DNA from: Tubiluchus corallicola
Taxonomy: Eukaryota > Animalia > Priapulida
Length of the DNA: 64,000 nt
Direction of reading: 5' to 3'
Assembly: GCA_030141605.1 (NCBI GenBank)
Contig: JAQGDQ010000937.1
Coordinates: 1 to 64,000, forward strand
Each line of letters opens with the position of its first letter. Positions within the stretch are counted from its first letter, which is position 1. Position numbers and translations under genes: made by a program. The notes beneath the pieces are model-generated. The model was given only the letters and a program-made list of their open reading frames with translations. It was not told where the DNA came from and made no database searches. Shown one piece after another: positions 33,500-56,200 of this stretch.

Positions 33500-34090
33500 A
33501 CAATCAGTGTTTGTAGCTATTTTATCATTTTTGTAAGGGGGGCCTCTCATCTTTTTTGAGTAGTGTACTCTTTAGTTTTTCTTTGAGATCTTTTAAACTC
33601 GTTGAAGATTTTATTTCTTTAGATGCTGATTTTCTGATATTAATTGTGTTTTTAGATTTTGAGTTATGACCTTGTTTAGTGTTTGTTCCGATTCCGACTT
33701 TTTTACGATGTGATTAACTTGATTGTCCCATTTTGATTTATTATTAATTTCCATACCTAAGAAATTGGTTTCTTTGGATTGACAAATTGTTTAATTAAGA
33801 ACGTCAAGTGTTAAACTATCAGTTTTTACGTGGCTTCATTTGAACTTTTTTTCAGAGTTCATTTGTAAGTGATGAAAGTCCAGAATAGATTTGATTTCTT
33901 CTATGTTTTGTTTTAACGTTTATACAGGTATATTTGGGTCTGTGTTATTTGCAGACAGATTGCTATCATCTGCGTATTGCGTCACGTTGCAGTTCTTCTA
34001 GAATGTTTGGAATATTGTTTACATAAACAGTGGACCAAGAACTGTGCCTTGCAGTACCCTATTTTTGATCGTACCCCATTCTGAATATAT
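33500..34090 (-). pseudogene. Degenerate non-LTR (CR1/L2-like) reverse transcriptase fragment
   Basis: Minus strand reads RVLQGTVLGPL / YVNNIPNIL / NCNVTQYADDS / KETNFLGMEINNKSKWDNQVNHIVKK with frameshifts; these match the GVPQG, YADD and FLG..W motifs of LINE RT. Confidence 0.85.
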
Positions 34091-34385: not shown

Positions 34386-35612
34386 CATATTGGATGCACA
34401 TATGAATGTTTTTCTCTCTTACACAGGTGGACCATATTGGATGTACATATGAATGTTTTTCTCTCTTACACAGGTGGACCATATTGGATGTACGTATGTA
34501 TGTCTTTCTCTCTCACACTGGTGGACCATATTGGATGTACGTATGTATGTCTTTCTCTCTCACACAGGTGGACCATAATGGATGTACGTATGAATGTTTT
34601 TCTCTCTTACACAGGTGGACCATATTGGATGTACGTATGAATGTTTTTCTCTCTTACACAGGTGGACCATATTGGATGCACGTATGAATGTCTTTCTCTC
34701 TTACACAATTGTACCATATTGGATGTACATATGAATGTCTTTCTCTCTTACACAGGTGGACCATATTGGATGTACGTATGAATGTCTTTCACTCTTACAC
34801 AGGTGAACCATATTGAATGCACGTATGAATGTCTTTCTCTCTTACACAGGTTTACCATAATGGATGTAAGTATGAATGTTTTTCTCTCTTATACAGGTGA
34901 ACCATATTGGATGCACCTATGAATCTCTTTCTCTCTTACACAGGTGGACCATAATGGATGCACGTATGAATGTCTTTCTCTTTTACACAGGTGGATCATA
35001 TTGAATGCACCTATGAATGTCTTTCTCTCTTATGCAGGTGGACCATAATGGATGCACGTATGAATGTTTTTCTCTCTTACACAGGTGGACCATATTGGAT
35101 GCACGTATGAATGACTTTCTCTCTTACACAGGTGGACCATAATGGATGTACGTATGAATGTTTTTCTCTTACACAGGTGGACCATAATGGATGTACGTAT
35201 GAATGTTTTTCTCTTACACAGGTGGACCATAATGGATGCACGTATGTATGTCTTTCTCTCTCACACTGGTGGACCATATTGGATGTACGTATGTATGTCT
35301 TTCTCTCTTACACAGGTGGACCATATTGGTTGCACGTATGAATGTTTTTTCTCTTACACAGGTGGACCATATTGGTTGCACGTATGAATGTTTTTTCTCT
35401 TACACAGGTGGACCATATTGGTTGCACATATGAATGTTTTTTCTCTTACACAGGTGTGCCATATTGGATGTACGTATGAATGTTTTCTCTCTTACACAGG
35501 TGTGCCATATTGGATGTACCTATGAATGTCTTTCTCTCTTACACAGGTGGACCATATTGGATGCAACTATGATTGTTTTTTCTCTTACACAGGTGGACCG
35601 TATTGGATGTAC
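34386..35612. repeat. 47-bp minisatellite, about 26 copies (tctctcttacacaggtggaccatattggatgtacgtatgaatgttt..)
   Basis: Period from acacagg at 34421 and 34468; the terminal unit overlaps the stop codon of the PAN-galectin gene. Confidence 0.95.
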
Positions 35613-35720
35613 TTCTGAAGTACCATATCACCGTGCATTGTTATCGAATTTATGTCAGAAATAGGAGTGTAACGGTACTGGTAATCTACAAAGTGGTTTC
35701 CATTAACACTGACTGAAAAC
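35585..35720 (-). CDS. Exon 5 (terminal): (K)FSVSVNGNHFVDYQYRYTPISDINSITMHGDMVLQKYIQYGPPV*
   Basis: Acceptor ctgtttcag|G. Galectin C-terminal pattern FxVxVNGxH..Y.xR..P...I..L.I.GD. Confidence 0.9.
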
Positions 35721-38700
35721 CTGAAACAGACAAAACAATTATCATTAAATCTACACATTCCTTAATATTTGTAATACATGTAATGCTGCTGCTGTTGACA
35801 AAATTGACGTAAGTACTTTGGCTCACAACCTGTGGGGACTGGCGTACTGCAACTGTGACTTACACCCACTGTAACACCTCATTAGAAACGTACTTCAGCA
35901 TAAGTAGAAAACTTTATGCAGCTGATTTTTTTGCTTACTAGTTGCCGTCTAGCACTCTAAGACATTTGTTCTTAAATGACACATCAGTAAGTTTTCGACG
36001 TCTAATGACTAAATCAGGGTATATTTAAAAAACATCGTTCCAAATTGATTATAAGCTTTAGATCCGTTATGCGTTAAAAACAATCTAAATAACCCATTTA
36101 AGCAGCTGTAAACATTTCCTAAGATAAAGAACAAAACTTCTAATTATTAACTCATGTGTTACGTACTTGTCCTCCAGCATGTCGATTTCCATTGAAAATT
36201 CTTGTCCTGCTTCAAGTGTAAGGGGTGCTATCTCATCAATACCCCAGCGACCGGTCACTCTGCTGTTCAATAATGTGTGGTTCAACTCGAAGTCAGGATT
36301 GATTTTTAATACAATTTTGGGAGCAGCTTTGGCAATTCTAAGACGAATGTAGATTCTAAAAGAATAAAAGCCATTATGTAAAATCTGGTTCAAACAATAT
36401 GCCGTAGCGAGCAAAATTGGATTCTGTGTGCTTAGAAACCACTTATGAAACGCTGAACCTAGTGAGTAGATGGGTTGGTAACCACTGAGCTCAGTAATCG
36501 TATGTCACTTGCCACACTGCTTCTAGCTAAATTTCGAATAGATGGAAGATGTTAATGCGTTGAGAAGGCACTGCACCTACAATGTCTCACTTTAGGGGCT
36601 TATCCTTGATAATTATCTGATTCCAGTCCCGCCACAGTTAATTACGGCAAATTAGCACAGCCGTTAGTGCTATTAAAACAGACAGTCGATATACTGACTA
36701 CATGCTTACTCAGGTTGAATGTAGCTTTGCAAGCAATGCTTATAGACTTACTAAACTCAAGTGTTCTTTGCATACGTCTTCACATGCAGGGAATTTTTCG
36801 GTTTTCGGTATTTATGTGGAATGGCGTAGTATTAAAAGAAAGGTCAAATTACTTACCATGTTTTATTTTAATTTTATTTTTCTGTTATCACTTACAAAAT
36901 ATAACAAAGAAATTTACATAAAGAAACTGTCTATAAATTTAATAAGTAAATTTATTAACGCCACTGCGTAGAATTTTTCAGTTGCGGTGGTTGCTGCCAT
37001 TCACTTAAAAATTGTGACATAACAAGTGAACTTTGTGACTTTTCGTAAGCGCATCGTGGCTTTTGTAAGAGCATCGTGACTTTTCGTAAGCGCACCGTGG
37101 CTTTCCATAAGAGCATCGTAGCTTTCGTGAGAGCATCGTGGCTTTCCGTAAGAGCATCGTGACTTTTTGTAAGTGCATCGTGACTTTTCGTAAGTGCATC
37201 GTAGCTTTCGTAAGTGCATCGTGACTTTTTGTAAGTGCATCGTAGCTTTCCGTAAGAGCATCGTGACGTTTTGTAAGTGCATCGTGACTTTTCGTAAGTG
37301 CATCGTAGCTTTCCGTAAGAGCATCGTAGCTTTCCGTAAGAGCATCGTGACTTTTTGTAAGTGCATCGTGACTTTTCGTATGTGCACCGTAGCTTTCCGT
37401 AAGAGCATCGTGGCTTTCCGTAAGAGCATCGTGGCTTTTGTAAGAGCATCGTGACTTTTCGTAAGAGCATCGTGACTTTTTGTAAGTGCATCGTGACTTT
37501 TCGTAAGTGCATCGTAGCTTTCCGTAAGAGCATCGTGGCTTTCCATAAGTGCACCGTGGCTTTCGTAAGAGCATCGTGGCTTTCCGTAAGCGCACCGTGG
37601 CTTTCCGTAAGAGCATCGTGGCTTTCCGTAAGCACATCGTGACTTTTCGTAAGTGCATCATAGCTTTTGTAAGAGCATACTTCCAATACTAAAGTGTCTC
37701 GGTACTGAACGAAAGGCATTTCTTTGTTTATTTTTCAGAGAAAGATTTCACACTACCAAATAATGTGTGCCAATTAACAAAGCATAACCTGCCCGCAAGT
37801 AATACCAAAAATGTGTCGCATCATTGTGCTTCTTTCCTACAAGTTTTATTAAAAGAAACGACACACCAGTTAACATGTTGTGTTTATATTGCTGTTATTA
37901 CTTAAACTTAGAAAAATATAACAAAGAAACTTGAACGAAAACTGCTATAAAGCATAAAGTTCATTTGTACGACTAACGCTGAACAGAAATTCATTCAAAT
38001 GAATGACAGCTGTCTGCTGTGATAGCCGCCATTCACATGAAAATTATGATGTAACAGGTGAACTTCGTGACTTTCCATAAGCGCATCGTGGCTTTCCGTA
38101 AGCGCATCGTGACTTTCCGTAAGCGCATCGTGACTTTCCATAAGCGCATCGTGACTTTCTGTAAGCGCATCGTGACTTTCTGTAAGTGCGTCGTGGTTTT
38201 CTGTAAGCGCATCGTGACTTTCTGTAAGCGCTTCGTGGTTTTCTGTAAGGCATCGTGACTTTCCGTAAGTCCATCGTGATTTTCTGTAAGCACATCGTGA
38301 CTTTCTGTAAGCGCGTCGTGGTTTTCTGTAAGCGCATCGTGACTTTCTGTAAGCGCATCATGACTTTCCGTAAGCGCATCTTGACTTTCTGTAAGCACAT
38401 GCTAGCTAAACTAATTCAGACTTCTGCAGCTTACCTAATGTTCGTGCAGAAACGTCACAAATTTAGCTATCTAATTTCTTGTAAAAACTTATTTTACTTT
38501 TTACGGAAATTTACATTCCCCTGCTCTTCTTCAGTCCACGGGTGACGTCATTAGTGAATGACGTCATTAGCGAAAAAATAGTCATTCAAAATCCAAGCGC
38601 CTAAGCGTAAAATGTCACAATTTTAAAGTGTTTTTTACTAATCACACGGGATTCTTCTCACACTGTTATTCCTAAATCATTCTAACATTTTCCCCGAACA

Positions 38701-40062
38701 TTGTAATAAGCCTATACCGGAAGGCTATGCCTTTCCCTTTTCCACTCAAAAGAAATACTGTTCATATGTCCAAAGCCCTGTTTCTTGTAGCTGAATATCT
38801 ACCAATTTTCATTAGGCAAAGGATTTCGAACCTAGCTAGATTAACTTATAGATTAGTAGAAACAACAGTTATTAAAACATGTGTAGTTCACGTGTATAAG
38901 TTATATTTTACAACAATATAGTGTGGAAATATAATCATGTGATATTATGTAGACCTCAAACTAAAACACAAATAATTAACAATCATTATAACTGGTCAGT
39001 CGTTGAGGTGATTTTGTGGTAAATACAGATGCCTACCCGCCTTGTGGATTGTCAAGCACTCTGCCTTCTATGTAAAACGTTGCGTTCACTTTAGCGCCAC
39101 CATAGATTGTTTGCTTGTACGGCATACTAGTCGAACCCAGAAGTGGAATTAGATACATAGGCCTCTACAAGTATAACAAATATTATTAAACTGTTTTCCT
39201 TATGGTCAATCGTAGGATTATCGACTTGACTAGAAAGAAGTTAGTCTCAGTAAAATTTATTACTCTTGGCGTGGGAACAATATGTTTGTCTTGAAAATAG
39301 GTGAATACGTTGTTAATAAGTTTTAAATAGAAAAAGCAAAATTTGAATATTTTAACATGATTTAAAAAAAGAGCTCAAATTTCTGAAGAAACAAAAAATG
39401 CACTTTGTCTTTTAAGTTTTGTTGTTTCTTACATTAGAAAAATGTGTTCAATATATTTTGCTGATAATTTAATTACTTTTTCATTCAGAACTTGAATTGA
39501 TAAACAGCTTTATTGACAACACAACCACATCAATACAATAAAAGCGTACAATCATTATAATATAATTATAACTTTTGCATTTTTTGGGCATGACGAATAT
39601 CAAGCATGAAATGGATTTGGACGGTGACTGCTAAGATGTGTTTAATTTATGGATACATTTAAGCTAGTGTTACTTGTATTTAAGGCTCTTCATGACGAGG
39701 CACACGATTACATTTGTGACTTGATTCGTCTAACAAATTTAAACTGATATCGTATCAGATCAACTGATGACTTTTTGCTTACGGTTCCTAGAGTGCGCCA
39801 TTGCAGGAGCAGCCTATGGAACAGTTTATCTATCCACACCGGACACTTTCGGTCATTAACGCTCTTAAAATACAGGTCAATGCATACGTATTTAAAATAG
39901 CATACAATTTTTGAAGTGATCAAATTATTTGCCGATGCTTGTACATTATGAATCTGTTTGTTTTTATGTATTTACTTATTGTAATTTATTGTAATTTCAT
40001 GAAATTTAGTTGGCTTACTGTTTAATCTAGTAAACCTTTTTTTAATTAATAGTAACAACAAC

Positions 40063-40112
<50 letters not shown>

Positions 40113-40202
40113 CAACAACAACAACAATAATAATAATAATAATAATAATAATATTGTTGTTGTTGTTGTTGTTGTTGCTGTTGCTGTTGCTGTTGCTGTT
40201 GT

Positions 40203-40237
<35 letters not shown>

Positions 40238-40256
40238 TTGTTGTTGTTCTTATTAT

Positions 40257-40303
<47 letters not shown>

Positions 40304-42166
40304 TTGTTGTTGTTGTTGTTGTCATTACAGCAATATTACACACAAACACTGGTGTAAGGTTCAAGTACTTACGTTAGCTTTCAGCTTCTCGTCATACACA
40401 TACACCATACTGTCGGTTAGATCAAAAGGTTTTGCTACAAAATACAAAAACGAGCAAATTGAGCTTCAGCATTAATTTATTGCATTATTGTTACTTCTTC
40501 ACTCCGTAATAATTTAATGTTCAGATCTGTGCTTGCATTTTAGTTACATTATCAACTAAACTTCTTTATCAACCACCTGGGTCATCAAACTCAAAGCAAA
40601 AATTGATGTTTGAGACAATAATAGTAACTTTTAAAAGTAAAGGAAACTCGGGCCCAGTCTTAAACTATGGCTCGAAACAGTCTACTATTACTAAATATTG
40701 AAAGGGGAACATACTATCTTTACACTATCTTTACAAGAATGACTTACGACAGATGCATAATTTTGCATCCGCCCGGCTAGTCTTTCGCCATTTGCTAGTT
40801 AGAGGGCTCTAGCGTCTAACTCTCGAAAACGCGTTGTGTCTCTGAGTTTAGAATTGTAGAATGTTCAGTTGTGACGTTCAGTAGTGCACACGTTCGACTG
40901 CTCATGCAGTACAGCAGTAAATAAGAAATGGAAATTTCAAACTTACAATGTTCTGAAGTTTTGTATATCACACTGAATGTTGTGCTGTAGGACTGTACTT
41001 CAATTTTGACTTTCACAAATACATGCAACAGGCTCATAGAATGTTTGTGCTGTTGAAAATTACATTCATTTGTGACGTCATAGCTAGTTGGGCTCGCTCG
41101 CCATTAATTAAGGTTCTTACCCATTATTTAATTATCACAAACGCTTTGGCATCATCATAGGTGTTACCTGCGTGCTTTTTACTGCTCTTCAAAATGGGGT
41201 AGGACATGAAAAATCGTTGGCTTTCCCTTTAAAGCACCTTTATCAATGCGATAAATAAGTTCTAATCAGAAGACACCTTTTGCCATGCTCTACCTTTAAC
41301 ACCACTAACAGTCATAGTGCCACCACACAGATTGTTAATCAGCTTTCAATGCTGTTCAAACTGTCTGATGCGGTCTTCTCAAATACCGATCCAAGCTGCT
41401 ACCAATCGACGAACAGACTAACTAAATGACCAACTAGACCAGCATTTCAACCATACAATCACTCAATATTACATTACATTACGTTACGTTACATTACATT
41501 ACGCTACATTGCATTACATTACGTTATATTACGTTACGTTACATTACATTACATTACATTACATTACGTTACATTGCATTACGTTACATTACATTACATT
41601 ACGTTACATTGCATTACGTTACATTACGTTACATTACATTACATTACATTACATTACATTACATTACATTACGTTACATTGCATTACGTTACATTACGTT
41701 ACATTACATTACATTACATTACATTACATTACATTACGTTACATTGCATTACGTAACATTACGTTACATTACATTACATACATTACATTATATTCTAGTG
41801 TAATGCTCCGTTGCAGAGTAATGATGAACAAAAATGGATGAACCCACCTGTTAAATCTGCAATGAAAAAATCAAAATCAGGCATTAAAGTTTTAGCTGAA
41901 CCAGTTGCCTTAGGACCGCATAAGTCACATAAGAAACTGTCATCACTTGGGCCTACACTGAGACCAATACATTCTGGCCGTGTTACACACGAGCGTATAC
42001 AACCCATCATCGATCTAACATTCATCGTCTCAAGTATAAACCCTGTCACATTTTTATCTATTAGCACTTTTTTTAAACTAGTTATGTCAACAACGGCAAC
42101 GGCTAAACTTAACAAGACACACCCTACAGTGAGAAAAAACCTGCTTTCAAATCTTGACCAAGCCAT
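35585..42166 (-). CDS. 5-exon gene: secreted PAN/apple-domain + galectin-like domain protein, 277 aa (join 42166-41848, 40434-40373, 39164-39037, 36355-36167, 35720-35585)
   Basis: All four introns are GT..AG with pyrimidine tracts. Exon lengths 319+62+128+189+136=834 nt give one open frame from ATG to TAA with phases 1,0,2,2. Galectin fold motifs are recognisable across exons 3-5. Confidence 0.88.
36167..36355 (-). CDS. Exon 4: (G)IYIRLRIAKAAPKIVLKINPDFELNHTLLNSRVTGRWGIDEIAPLTLEAGQEFSMEIDMLED(K)
   Basis: Acceptor attcttttag|A, donor AA|gtacgt. Galectin core NP.F..NS...G.WG.E and G..F pattern. Confidence 0.9.
36403..36680 (+). mobile_element. Possible SINE relic with 5S-like internal box (intron 3)
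   Basis: acttatgaaacgctgaacctagtgagtagatgggttggtaaccac loosely resembles the 5S rRNA-derived internal promoter region; weak. Confidence 0.25.
37035..37675. repeat. 21-bp minisatellite (gcatcgtgactttccgtaaga), intron 3, array A
   Basis: Tandem units; 7-aa periodic ORFs (ESHDALT). Confidence 0.95.
38063..38400. repeat. 21-bp minisatellite (gcatcgtgactttctgtaagc), intron 3, array B
   Basis: Same family as array A with a homologous upstream flank. Confidence 0.95.
39037..39164 (-). CDS. Exon 3: RPMYLIPLLGSTSMPYKQTIYGGAKVNATFYIEGRVLDNPQG(G)
   Basis: Acceptor atacttgtag|A, donor GG|gtaggc. Galectin N-terminal pattern PY...I.GG.....F.I.G.V. Confidence 0.9.
40053..40322. repeat. Compound microsatellite (AAT)n/(AAC)n then (GTT)n/(GTTGCT)n
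   Basis: Direct reading; poly-L/poly-T ORFs are artefacts. Confidence 0.95.
40373..40434 (-). CDS. Exon 2 (linker): (A)KPFDLTDSMVYVYDEKLKAN
   Basis: Acceptor tttgtattttgtag|C, donor AAC|gtaagt. Phase 1 in and phase 0 out, exactly bridging exons 1 and 3. Confidence 0.85.
40636..41232. mobile_element. Kolobok-like MITE (intron 1); related copies at ~56320-56620 and ~59705-60120
   Basis: Ends taaaggaaac...ttccctttaa; shares aaatattgaaagg..catactat..aatgacttacg..cgccatt.gctagttaga with the other copies. Confidence 0.55.
41469..41792. repeat. Pentanucleotide satellite (cATTA/cGTTA)n
   Basis: acattacattacgtt runs; HYITL ORFs are artefacts. Confidence 0.95.
41848..42166 (-). CDS. Exon 1: signal peptide + PAN/apple-like domain (MAWSRFESRFFLTVGCVLLSLAVA-VVDITSL...GCIRSCVTRPECIGLSV...CDLC...DFFIADLT)
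   Basis: ATG at 42166, hydrophobic h-region ending AVA, Cx3Cx5C...C spacing typical of PAN modules, donor ACAG|gtgggt. Confidence 0.85.
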
Positions 42167-49534: not shown

Positions 49535-49802
49535 GTTAGTCAGTCAGTCAGCTGGTGAGTCACTCAGAAGTAATTAGTCAGTCAGTCGGTCAGCCGGTCA
49601 ATCAGTCAATCAGTCAGTCAGTCATTCAGTCGGTATGTCAGTCTGTCATTCATGCATTCATCTGTTATTGAATATTCACCACACAGCTATTCAGGCAGTC
49701 AGTTAATTAGTCAGTATGTCAACAAATTCAATCACTTACTTGGTGAAACAATCAGTCAGTCAGTAAGTAAGTCAGTCAGTCAAATAGGCAGCCAGCCAGC
49801 CA
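49535..49802. repeat. Degenerate (AGTC)n microsatellite
   Basis: gtcagtcagtca tracts. Confidence 0.85.
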
Positions 49803-49861
49803 ATTAAAGTTAAAGCGCCTGAAAATTGCACTGCCAGTGAAGGTAAAAAACATTGTTACAG

Positions 49862-50003
49862 AATCCTGGGCCTAGATGGCATACGTGTAGTAGATGCATC
49901 AGTTGCCCCGGCAACCATATCCACAGGTACACATGCTGTAGTTGTCATGGTAGCAGAGAAGGCTGCCGGCGAGATAAAGAAGACAATGGTGGGCCAAGTG
50001 TGA
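49862..50003 (+). CDS. Terminal exon of a GMC (glucose-methanol-choline) oxidoreductase: (R)ILGLDGIRVVDASVAPATISTGTHAVVVMVAEKAAGEIKKTMVGQV*
   Basis: Matches the GMC C-terminal signature (V.G..GLRVVDAS..P....N....IMIAEKAA..IK). Acceptor ttacag|A (phase 2), TGA at 50001-50003, AATAAA at 50098. Not present in the ORF track. Confidence 0.88.
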
Positions 50004-53250: not shown

Positions 53251-53499
53251 ATTTTATTACATTGTGATAACAATTCTGTTATTTAAGCAATATGATGAAT
53301 TGATATTAGACGTTTTGAAATTTGCAGTTTCTCAAAATAGAATCATATTTAACTTTTCCATCTCTTCTATACAAAACACTTGAACGTTGCAGTTTCTCGA
53401 AATAAAATCATATTGAATTAAACTTATAGCATCAGCAATTATTCTGTCTCTTTTATACAACAATTCTATTATATAAAAAATTAGGCAGCAGAAATACTT

Positions 53500-54010
53500 G
53501 GACATGTGAGATTTAACGATAAAAAGGTTAAAGATGATGAGATAGAAGCTTTGTCTGCGAATCAGAAAGTTTTGAAAGATAAAATTCATCAATGTAAAAA
53601 TTTAGCAGAAATTGATGTTCTTAAGAAGAAACGCGAAGAAATTCCAAAGCAAATTCATGAAAAGCTAAAACAAATAGAAGAAAAAAAGGTGACTGGCATT
53701 GCAGAAGAAATTGAGCAAACAAAAAATGATTCCTCTAGGCATTTTGAAGTAATACGTGCAGACCTTTCAAACAAAGAAAAAATTGATTGTAGAAGGAAAT
53801 GATGGTCTAATTACTGATGCTGAACAGCAAACTGAAGCCATAGCAGAATTTTTTCAACGAATTTTTAATGATGAAAATGCAGTTGGGGTTAATAGGACTC
53901 CAATGAAAGTTCCTTTTCCTTAAGAATAAGTAAAGCATGCGGCAAAATCATTGAAAAACAACAAAAGCCCGGATGCTGATGAATTAAATGCTGAGTCAGT
54001 CACGTATGAA
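53500..54010 (+). pseudogene. Degenerate LINE ORF2 fragment (RTE-like), region preceding the RT domain
   Basis: KKKREEIPKQIHEKLK...AEEIEQ...LITDAEQQTEAIAEFFQRIFN...AKSLKNNKSPDADELNAE resembles the K(S/A)PG.D...AE pre-RT motif; stops and frameshifts are present. Confidence 0.7.
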
Positions 54011-54019
54011 TCAGATTTA

Positions 54020-56200
54020 TTTATGAAGTTTATCAAGCGTCTATACATTAGCTTCTCAATGATCTTAGACAGTATTGGCAAAACTGAAAGTGGTCGGTAG
54101 TTAACAAATAGGTTACGTTCTTAGTTTTTATAAACTGGTGTTACTTTAGCTATGTTTAGTCCTTTAGGTACGACACCTGTCAAAAAAGATAATTAAAAAG
54201 GTTGGTAAGTGGTTCCGTGATTACATACGGATTTTATAACATCAGCAGTTACGCCGTCATAACCAGGACTAACATTAAATTTTAATGACATAATTAGCTT
54301 TACGACGTTATGGCTAGTAGCAGCAATGAATATAGATTCAATGATCATGCGAGGTTGTTAAATAATCACAGTACCTTTTTTGCAAATTGATATACGGAAT
54401 AGAGTTTGCAATATTGCGCCCAACATTTACAAAAAAAAACTATTGAATTTATTCACTAACTCATTTGGATCACTTATTTCAATGCCATTATGTAGGAAGT
54501 AAATTTGGCTATTGCCCGTAGGCTTATTTTTATTAATGATCTGTCTTAACACTTGCCATGATTTAGATTTGTTGCCCTTGTTTTCTTGAATTTTGGCTTG
54601 GTAAACTTTCGTTCGGATAACCTTATTTAGATTTGTAAATTTCTTTTTATATTGCTTGTATTCCTTCAATAAATTTTGAGAAGCACATTTTAGGTATTCT
54701 TTATACATAACATTTTTTCTTTTAACGCTACTTAACAAACCAGGAGTAATCCAGGGTTTTCCTAGATTACGAGTTTTACAAGGTTTTAGAGGAAAACACG
54801 TTTCATAACATTTTAACAAATTATCTTGAAATGACGTGTAATCAGTCTGGCCATTATTAGAGTCTAAAATATTGTTCCGCGCAATACTTTGTAACATTCT
54901 TTTTAATTTATCTTTATTTACTTTATTAAAAACGCGTCTGTAAAACGACAACATACACACTAATTCAGAATTCATATACCCACGGCCATATTAATTAAAT
55001 CATAGTTTTTGTTTTTTTTTATTTTTTTGTATATGGTTGTAAATATGTTTGATTTTATTCGTCATTACTGCACAGTAGTTTAGATTGCACTGACGCATTT
55101 GCCTTCAGCAGTGTAAGTTTTTATTAACTAACACTGATTGATTATCTCTATAAAGTTTTTATCAGTGATTATCAATGTTTTTAATGGCAAATAAAGATTA
55201 TTATATATATATATATATATATATATTCTTTTGTTTGTTTACTGCCAACATCTGCAATACAGAAAACAGGGAAATGATCAGAGATAGTCGTACATATGAT
55301 CCCATTATTACTTTGCTCTATACCAAGACAGCTAAAGTCATTCATATTATCAATGAGAGTTGCAGTGGAGTTAGTAGCTCGAGTTGGTTTGTTTATCAAA
55401 GGGAAGTACCCATAAGAATATAGAGTTTCCAATAATTCATGTGTTGGAGTATGTTCATTAAATGTTAATAAATCTAAGTTGAAGTCTCCTAGAATGAAAC
55501 ACTTTTTATTCTCGTGTATTATTACTTCTAAAATGCAGTTTAGCTTTTCATTAAAATTTTCTATATTTACACCATAACCAGGAGGCCTGTATATAATGCC
55601 CGCTAGCACATTTTTACGACTCATAATCGGACTTTTAACTTCGACACACATTATCTGACATATTGGCTCGTTGCAATTTCAAACATTTCTAATATCAAAA
55701 TCTAGGTGGTCCTTTACGTAAATAGATACCCCCCCCCCCCACCACGCTGCCCAGTATCTCTAGTTTGACTAACGTGATTATAGCCTGGAATTTCGTAAAG
55801 CATAGAATTTTCATTTGTTAACCAAGTCTCAGAAAAGCCAAATTCACGATTAATGCTTTTCATGTAACGTAACAGTTCGTTTATATTGGCTTGAGTACTT
55901 CTTATATCTAAATGCAACAGTGATAGGTGGCAGGGACTATTTACTTTGAGACCCAAAAGAGCATTGTCATTATAGTAAGGACAGTTTAATGACGCACTGT
56001 TGTAACAGTTACTGTCACCATCTACCTCTCTTATTTTATGTTTTAAAGATTCTTCCATTTCAAAAGGCGAGAATACTAATTCATTGATTTTTTCAATATT
56101 AATAAAGTACGAGTCTCTATTAATCGCGATTAAACAAACTTTATCATTATCTAAATGATTAAAAGCAAATAATTCGTCATTACACGCACATGACACGCCC
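54020..56200 (-). pseudogene. Degenerate CR1-like LINE ORF2: APE endonuclease plus linker, truncated before the RT core
   Basis: LLHLDIRS, FSETWL, GGG, GIIYRPP, ILGDFN, KPTR, TLIDN, SDHFPV (APE); KPWITPGL; SPGYD, AKVTPVYK and NYRPLSVLPILSKIIEK across frameshifts. Confidence 0.92.

What the first reader, a model, noticed from the sequence alone, without database searches (positions are those of the whole stretch)
35585..42166. Hidden 5-exon gene: signal peptide + PAN/apple domain fused to a galectin domain
Seen: five GT-AG exons scattered among satellites splice into one 277-aa ORF; the ORF track catches only parts of exons 1 and 4. Established: galectins typically lack signal peptides and are exported non-classically, and the usual classes are proto, chimera (galectin-3) and tandem-repeat; PAN/apple modules mediate protein or glycan binding. 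Inference: this is a classically secreted two-module lectin-like protein of an atypical chimera type, possibly a lineage-specific immune, adhesion or matrix protein built by exon shuffling (the PAN exon ends in phase 1). N-glycosylation sequons NVT, NAT and NHT fit ER passage.
Basis: partly seen in the sequence, partly recalled or inferred. Interest (0 to 1): 0.85.

Follow-up and report, generated by a model that had tools for sequence, protein, structure and literature searches.

The report
Secreted PAN-galectin-like fusion gene
Five exons hidden among repeats in an animal genome join into one unbroken reading frame that likely makes a secreted protein with a PAN/apple-like module in front of a galectin-type domain; that domain has lost most of the residues galectins use to grip galactose, so it likely works as a protein-binding adaptor, not an ordinary sugar lectin.

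Summary
Five minus-strand exons (42166-35585, all GT-AG, phases 1/0/2/2) give a 277-aa open frame. Exons 3-5 form one galectin domain in order: PF00337 above cut-off for exons 4 and 5, exon 3 weakly matching galectin-4. Exon 1 looks like a signal peptide plus a four-cysteine PAN-like module. That rests on Atlas PAN_1 clusters and PAN-bearing relatives; there is no direct Pfam hit and the fold search was inconclusive. The fusion is supported by splice scores but not by RNA: no holder was listed. Rivals are a separate PAN gene plus a cytosolic galectin from an ATG in exon 2, or an extra upstream exon. I found no PAN+galectin single chain in four literature searches, in limited protein searches or in this scan's notes. 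Signal-bearing galectins (sponges) and PAN+lectin fusions are known. Verdict: new variant of a known kind, modest interest.

The parts
41848..42166 (-). Exon 1: ATG, predicted signal peptide (about aa 1-24) and four-cysteine PAN-like module (about aa 38-104); ends in phase 1
   Evidence: Open frame and donor; donor ranks 1 of 447 GT; hydropathy peak; Atlas PAN_1 clusters at 0.95, 29 of 30 hits; 43% identity over 67 aa to P0001
40373..40434 (-). Exon 2: 62-nt linker exon, phase 1 to 0; holds an in-frame ATG at 40408
   Evidence: Best of 65 phase 1-to-0 cassettes; 3 of 200 shuffles reach its score; ATG context
39037..39164 (-). Exon 3: N-terminal strands of the galectin domain
   Evidence: Weak match to galectin-4 residues 14-41, E 0.27; no Pfam hit on its own
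36167..36355 (-). Exon 4: middle galectin exon with the altered sugar-binding motifs (KxNxD and WxxDxI in place of HxNxR and WxxExR) and the sequon at aa 195
   Evidence: PF00337 positions 39-92, E 1.7e-7; alignments to galectin-9 and others; residue positions
35585..35720 (-). Exon 5 (coding part): C-terminal galectin strands and TAA stop
   Evidence: PF00337 positions 95-128, E 4.2e-6; galectin-8 E 2.9e-5
34386..35619 (.). 47-bp minisatellite (26.4 copies) whose first unit overlaps the last codons and the stop of exon 5; it would lie in the 3' UTR
   Evidence: Tandem Repeats Finder; unit alignment and frame
42123..42139 (-). Strong acceptor-like site inside the signal-peptide codons (first exon base 42123, phase 1): possible alternative 5' end
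   Evidence: Score 7.2, reached by 3 of 3755 minus-strand AG sites in the window

Best explanation
The five exons give one intact reading frame that likely encodes a classically secreted, roughly 28-kDa two-module protein: a predicted PAN/apple-like module, then a galectin-type domain that has lost most galactoside-binding residues and so likely binds proteins instead. Shown: the open frame, the canonical splice sites, the galectin profile match and the residue changes. Inferred: (1) the hydrophobic N-terminus is cleaved after about residue 24 and the chain enters the ER, where the PAN cysteines pair (56-80 and 60-66 by the recalled PAN pattern; Cys83 is left free, perhaps for a dimer) and up to three sequons are glycosylated; (2) the PAN module is the outward ligand-binding part; (3) the galectin sandwich serves for oligomerisation or protein docking, as in vertebrate LGALSL/GRP and the galectin-like domain of Toxoplasma MIC1; (4) the protein acts outside the cell as a bridging or recognition molecule in mucus, body fluid or matrix. 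It probably arose when a signal+PAN exon was placed upstream of a three-exon galectin gene and spliced into that gene's old first exon (now exon 2, which still carries a well-placed ATG).
For: Intact 834-nt frame with 8 canonical splice sites. Exon-1 donor ranks first of 447 GT sites and lies at the PAN border; exon 2 supplies exactly the needed phase change. The three-exon galectin layout matches the bilaterian pattern (PMC10343441 passages). Of 215 open stretches scanned, only the two galectin exons pass a Pfam cut-off, so no rival partner exon was seen. The nearest relative P0001 ends its PAN part at the same place and runs on into a stretch weakly like a C-type lectin (E 0.59). Of the eight residues listed in PMC5297725, Asn46, Asn61 and Trp68 are kept, Val59 is Leu, Glu71 is Asp, His44 is Lys, Arg48 is Asp and Arg73 is Ile. 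[quoted passage not shown]
Against: No transcript evidence either way. Exon 1 has no Pfam hit in three trims, and P0001's PAN_1 score (16.3 bits) is under the 21.4 cut-off. The exon-1 models were poor (mean pLDDT 40.6 and 50.3). No signal-peptide predictor was available. An in-frame ATG in good context sits in exon 2, exon 1 reads through to a 123-aa stand-alone frame, and a strong acceptor lies inside exon 1. PMC5297725 notes that not all eight residues are essential. No second gene with the same architecture was found, so conservation of the fusion is not shown.
Confidence: 0.5

Rival explanations
1. The fusion is real and secreted, but the galectin groove is still a sugar site, re-tuned to another glycan, making a two-headed lectin (opsonin).
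For: Trp and both Asn of the groove are kept and Glu to Asp is conservative. PMC5297725 says some of the eight residues only shift specificity. Mollusc galectins act as opsonins (PMC10343441).
Against: Both arginines and the histidine are lost, one with charge reversal. Chicken LGALSL2, which also keeps the Trp, gave only weak, mostly non-specific signals on a 672-glycan array (PMC13696195). A sequon lies between the two motif halves (aa 195).
Confidence: 0.15
2. There is no fusion: exon 1 is a small stand-alone secreted PAN gene (123 aa by read-through), and a signal-less single-domain galectin-like protein of 162 aa starts at the ATG in exon 2.
For: The exon-1 frame stays open to 41798. The nearest Atlas clusters are 115-125-aa PAN proteins, though the query length may favour these. 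The ATG at 40408 has A at -3 and G at +4. Bilaterian galectins normally lack a signal.
Against: The exon-1 donor is the best GT in the gene span and sits at the domain end. Exon 2 has a T-rich acceptor ranked 5 of 387, 26 nt before that ATG, and the joined frame is open and in phase.
Confidence: 0.15
3. The gene is longer at the 5' end: the PAN part is a symmetric 276-nt phase 1-1 internal exon (42123-41848) fed by an upstream exon, so the N-terminus differs from the first reader's.
For: The acceptor at 42123 scores among the top 3 of 3755 minus-strand AG sites and is in phase 1. Symmetric phase 1-1 exons are typical of shuffled extracellular modules (established knowledge).
Against: Signal-peptide codons are T-rich and mimic acceptors (inference). 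The ATG at 42166 has a good context and an upstream in-frame stop. Of 11 upstream ATG-to-donor phase-1 candidates (donor score >=1, up to 33 codons) none reads like a signal start; the nearest, 42429-42363, has a weak donor.
Confidence: 0.1
4. The locus is a young pseudogene or a silent copy, and the lost sugar residues are decay.
For: The most conserved galectin residues are changed, no close relative was found, and a minisatellite abuts the stop.
Against: No stop or frameshift in 834 nt and all 8 splice dinucleotides intact, although the introns hold several repeat arrays. The fold-level galectin match is retained. Degenerate galectin domains are common in invertebrates: only 74 of 366 nematode domains kept the residues.
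Confidence: 0.1

Closest known systems
Bilaterian galectins (Pfam PF00337; galectin-4, -8, -9)
   Same: Profile match, strand order, three-exon domain layout.
   Different: Predicted signal peptide, sequons, N-terminal PAN-like module; only 3 of 8 binding residues identical.
Galectin-related proteins LGALSL/HSPC159 (GRP) and LGALSL2
   Same: Galectin fold with binding residues replaced; beta-galactoside binding lost (PMC6902271, PMC13696195 passages).
   Different: They are described as single globular domains; no PAN module. No orthology was tested or is claimed.
Sponge galectins with signal peptides (Geodia CGL-1, Amphimedon, hRTL)
   Same: Galectin domain sent through the classical secretory route (PMC11979922, PMC10343441 passages).
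   Different: Single-domain, intronless in Amphimedon, sugar-binding residues conserved; no PAN.
PAN + C-type lectin proteins (C. elegans class IV CTLD+CW; Biomphalaria gene model 41; probably P0001)
   Same: PAN/apple module joined to a lectin-fold domain.
   Different: The partner is a C-type lectin domain, not a galectin fold.
Toxoplasma MIC1/MIC4/MIC6 complex
   Same: Secreted assembly with apple domains (MIC4) and a galectin-like domain that lacks sugar residues and binds protein (MIC1) (PMC8247436 passages).
   Different: Separate chains in a protist; an analogy of function only, no homology tested.
Cnidarian nematogalectins
   Same: Signal peptide plus an extra N-terminal module plus a 'gal-lectin' domain (PMC4195985 passages).
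   Different: Collagen-like module instead of PAN; I recall their lectin domain being the SUEL/rhamnose-lectin type rather than PF00337 (recalled, not tested).

Membership tests
Galectin | Galectin domain sequence (PF00337) | tested here: met
   Exons 4 and 5 above the gathering cut-off at consecutive positions; exon 3 weak match; Atlas 30 of 30 hits PF00337 for exon 4.
Galectin | Conserved binding residues His44, Asn46, Arg48, Val59, Asn61, Trp68, Glu71, Arg73 | tested here: not met
   3 of 8 identical, 2 conservative, 3 non-conservative (list).
Galectin | Binds beta-galactosides | not testable with these tools
   Needs a binding assay; predicted lost.
Galectin | No signal peptide, cytosolic synthesis (bilaterian rule) | tested here: inconclusive
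   Hydrophobic N-terminus by hydropathy, but no signal predictor was available and the exon 1-2 junction is not shown in RNA.
Galectin | Domain encoded by three exons in bilaterians | tested here: met
   Exons 3, 4 and 5 against the layout in PMC10343441; the long versus short middle-exon subtype was not settled.
PAN/apple domain | Pfam PAN-clan match above cut-off | tested here: not met
   0 families for three trims of exon 1 and for the whole open stretch.
PAN/apple domain | Remote similarity to PAN proteins and core Cys spacing | tested here: met
   Atlas 0.95, 29 of 30 hits PAN_1. Of the 3 phmmer hits, P0003 has 8 PAN_1 repeats and P0001 a sub-threshold PAN_1; P0002 was not scanned against Pfam. 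Profiles from P0003 and P0002 repeats score exon 1 above all 1000 shuffles (not independent, the proteins were found with exon 1). Cys at 56, 60, 66, 80.
PAN/apple domain | PAN fold | tested here: inconclusive
   Model pLDDT 50 with strand-helix-strand-strand order; no Foldseek match at E<=0.001 and best VIA Z 4.5.
Chimera-type galectin (galectin-3) | Pro/Gly-rich repeat N-terminal tail | tested here: not met
   The N-terminal part is a cysteine module, not Pro/Gly repeats (definition).

The most novel reading that the evidence does not exclude
This is the first seen member of an animal family of secreted PAN-galectin chimeras in which a cytosolic galectin gene was captured by a signal+PAN exon and gave up its galactose site on entering the secretory route. 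It would be a one-chain counterpart of the Toxoplasma MIC4/MIC1 division of labour and a natural test of why bilaterian galectins avoid the ER.
Probability: 0.25. Interest if true: 0.65.

Novelty: new variant of a known kind. Interest (0 to 1): 0.4.

Why it matters
Bilaterian galectins are defined partly by staying out of the ER. A gene that puts a galectin domain behind a signal peptide and a disulfide module, with the sugar site rewritten, would show how the fold is reused once it is secreted, and it adds a new partner to the PAN module's list. The weight is limited: it is one gene without RNA support or known ligand, degenerate galectin domains are common in invertebrates, and PAN+lectin fusions of other kinds are known. 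Unnoticed database models with this layout may well exist.

Tried and rejected
No genome is held, so paralogs outside the window could not be sought; inside the window tblastn found only the five exons and the satellite echo of the last codons. Word-index protein searches with exon 1, exon 4 and a two-sequence PAN alignment (lengths 'longer') found 0 of 1319, 0 of 21 and 0 of 1789 candidates; all were single-exon queries and are weak. The HMMER search of 1.84 billion representatives with exon 1 gave 3 hits, none with a galectin Pfam match among the 2 scanned. Metagenome contig scans found no relative. PDB sequence searches with exon 1 and alignment A2 gave no PAN entry. Both exon-1 models were low confidence and the fold searches listed no convincing match. 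The whole spliced protein could not be searched or folded, because the tools take only contiguous stretches. Alternative exon 4-5 junctions were considered: the donor at 36162 scores -3.4 against 2.8 for 36166, and by my reading of the frames it leads to stops. Literature searches for the pairing (15, 0, 4 and 26 papers) showed no single-chain PAN+galectin in the listings or in the passages read; subscription papers and supplements were not searched. Two papers were not held.
Full report
Observation. The finding lies on the minus strand. Five exons (42166-41848, 40434-40373, 39164-39037, 36355-36167, 35720-35585) with GT-AG introns of 1413, 1208, 2681 and 446 nt join at phases 1, 0, 2, 2 into 277 codons and a TAA; the three sequons are at residues 39, 154 and 195. 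The introns and flanks hold several tandem arrays. No whole genome is held. Other notes of this scan call the organism an unidentified invertebrate, probably not an arthropod (unchecked).

Galectin part. Exon 4 matches Pfam PF00337 at positions 39-92 (31.2 bits, cut-off 22.1) and exon 5 at 95-128 (26.7 bits). Exon 3 has no Pfam hit alone, but its only 2 PDB matches at E<=10 are the first strands of galectin-4 (E 0.27). For exon 4, 21 of 22 PDB matches at E<=1 are galectins; the best single hit was an unrelated protein, All3326. Exon 5's best hit is galectin-8 (E 2.9e-5). The pieces are in order and in phase, and a three-exon domain is the bilaterian layout (PMC10343441, passages). So one complete galectin-type domain is encoded.

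Sugar site. PMC5297725 (passages) lists His44, Asn46, Arg48, Val59, Asn61, Trp68, Glu71 and Arg73 of galectin-1. By the alignment to galectin-9 and the positions these are Lys187, Asn189, Asp191, Leu198, Asn200, Trp207, Asp210 and Ile212: 3 identical, 2 conservative, 3 not. PMC6902271 (passages) describes His, Asn, Arg and Trp as forming the galactose pocket and reports no apparent sugar binding for GRP, which lacks 4 of 6. Chicken LGALSL2, which keeps the Trp, gave mostly non-specific signals on 672 glycans (PMC13696195, passages). Against this reading, the nematode paper says not all eight residues are essential. It also found the set intact in only 74 of 366 nematode domains, so such degeneration is common. 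I infer that lactose-type binding is likely lost.

Exon 1. Residues 10-25 are hydrophobic and follow a short basic start; no signal predictor was available, so the signal peptide is inferred. Pfam gives no hit for three trims. The ESM Atlas places it with PAN_1 clusters at 0.95 (29 of 30 hits). HMMER over 1.84 billion representatives gave 3 hits: P0001 (43% over 67 aa; PAN_1 at 16.3 bits, under the cut-off), P0003 (8 PAN_1 repeats, E 1.5e-39) and P0002 (a many-repeat protein, not scanned against Pfam). Profiles from the repeats of P0003 and P0002 score exon 1 at 10.9 and 15.5 bits, above all 1000 shuffles and all other open stretches of the window, but these proteins were found with exon 1, so the test is not independent. 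Structure prediction was poor (pLDDT 40.6 and 50.3) and the fold searches were inconclusive. PAN-like is the best label, resting on remote similarity and the cysteine spacing 56, 60, 66, 80. P0001 leaves its PAN part at the same point as exon 1 and continues into a stretch weakly like a C-type lectin (E 0.59; its N-half weakly matches factor XI, E 0.65).

Is the fusion real? No RNA holder was listed, and the one listed run laid nothing on exons 1, 4 or 5; this says nothing about expression. Sequence evidence favours the join. With approximate generic matrices, not trained on this organism, the exon-1 donor ranks first of 447 GT sites in the span. Exon 1 cannot join exon 3 in frame directly. 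Exon 2 is the best of 65 open cassettes giving the needed phase change (7.8 against 3.5), beats the best cassettes of the four other phase pairs scanned (5 of 9 pairs tested; at most 3.8) and the opposite strand (5.0), and was reached by 3 of 200 shuffles. Of 215 non-repetitive open stretches of 50 aa or more (94 minus, 121 plus; repetitive ones were left out), only the two galectin exons pass a Pfam cut-off. Against: exon 1 reads on to a 123-aa stand-alone frame; exon 2 holds an in-frame ATG in good context at 40408 that would start a 162-aa signal-less galectin-like protein; and a phase-1 acceptor at 42123 inside exon 1 is among the top 3 of 3755 AG sites, although none of 11 upstream candidates reads like a first exon. 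I put the fusion at about 75-80%.

How it likely works. Inferred steps: ER entry and signal cleavage; two PAN disulfides (pairing recalled from the family), with Cys83 possibly free; N-glycans at up to three sites, one between the two halves of the old sugar motif; the PAN module binds an outside ligand; the galectin sandwich docks proteins or oligomerises. The nearest functional picture is Toxoplasma MIC1/MIC4, where a galectin-like domain without sugar residues binds protein and apple domains sit on another chain (PMC8247436, passages). That is an analogy, not homology. An immune, mucus or matrix role cannot be told apart here. The ATG in exon 2 suggests that it was the first exon of an ordinary galectin gene before the signal+PAN exon arrived; this is inference.

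Comparison and novelty. It works like a galectin-related protein, and it fails the galectin residue test, so I do not file it as a galectin. Signal-bearing galectins exist in sponges (PMC11979922, PMC10343441, passages), and PAN+C-type lectin proteins in nematodes and Biomphalaria (PMC5297725, PMC13712769, passages). I recall a snail IgSF+galectin protein (GREP); the paper was not held. Kutzner et al. 2020 on adding signal peptides to galectins was seen only as a reference title. Four searches for the pairing listed 15, 0, 4 and 26 papers; in the listings and in passages of PMC13712769, PMC5297725, PMC12355970, PMC3269628 and PMC8247436 I saw no single chain with both domains. Passages of PMC3349304, PMC11934519, PMC8497297 and PMC4195985 were also read; no supplements were read, and domain tables in supplements could hold this pairing. 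Protein searches found no second case, but each used one exon only and they are weak. This scan's notes hold no earlier PAN+galectin finding but several other PAN fusions, which suggests that PAN shuffling is frequent (unchecked notes).

Verdict. A real, well-formed gene model with an apparently undescribed pairing of two common modules and a rewritten sugar site; splicing, secretion and ligand are unproven. New variant of a known kind; interest 0.4.

Noticed in passing
window 34386-35619: The 47-bp minisatellite begins inside the gene's last codons. The far end of the array continues in the same frame into one more codon and a stop, so the array may have expanded within the gene's last codons without harming the C-terminus.
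   Followed up: partly
window 49788-50000 (+): Open stretch with a weak match to the C-terminal end of GMC oxidoreductase (PF05199, E 2.5e-4, 22.1 bits against a cut-off of 24.6); possibly a last exon or relic of a separate gene.
   Followed up: partly
window about 53300-56200 (-): Decayed LINE-like retroelement: endonuclease (PF14529, E 2.2e-5) and weak reverse transcriptase matches spread over several frames.
   Followed up: no
window 36983-37678 and 38015-38400: Intron 3 holds two related 21-bp arrays whose flanks also match (82% over about 380 nt), pointing to a local duplication.
   Followed up: no
window 33615-33795 (-): First polyadenylation-like hexamers after the stop lie about 1.8 kb downstream (33795, 33742, 33615), which would put the whole minisatellite in the 3' UTR.
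   Followed up: no
P0001 (Logan, 152 aa): Nearest relative of exon 1; appears to join a PAN module to a partial C-type-lectin-like stretch (weak matches only).
   Followed up: partly
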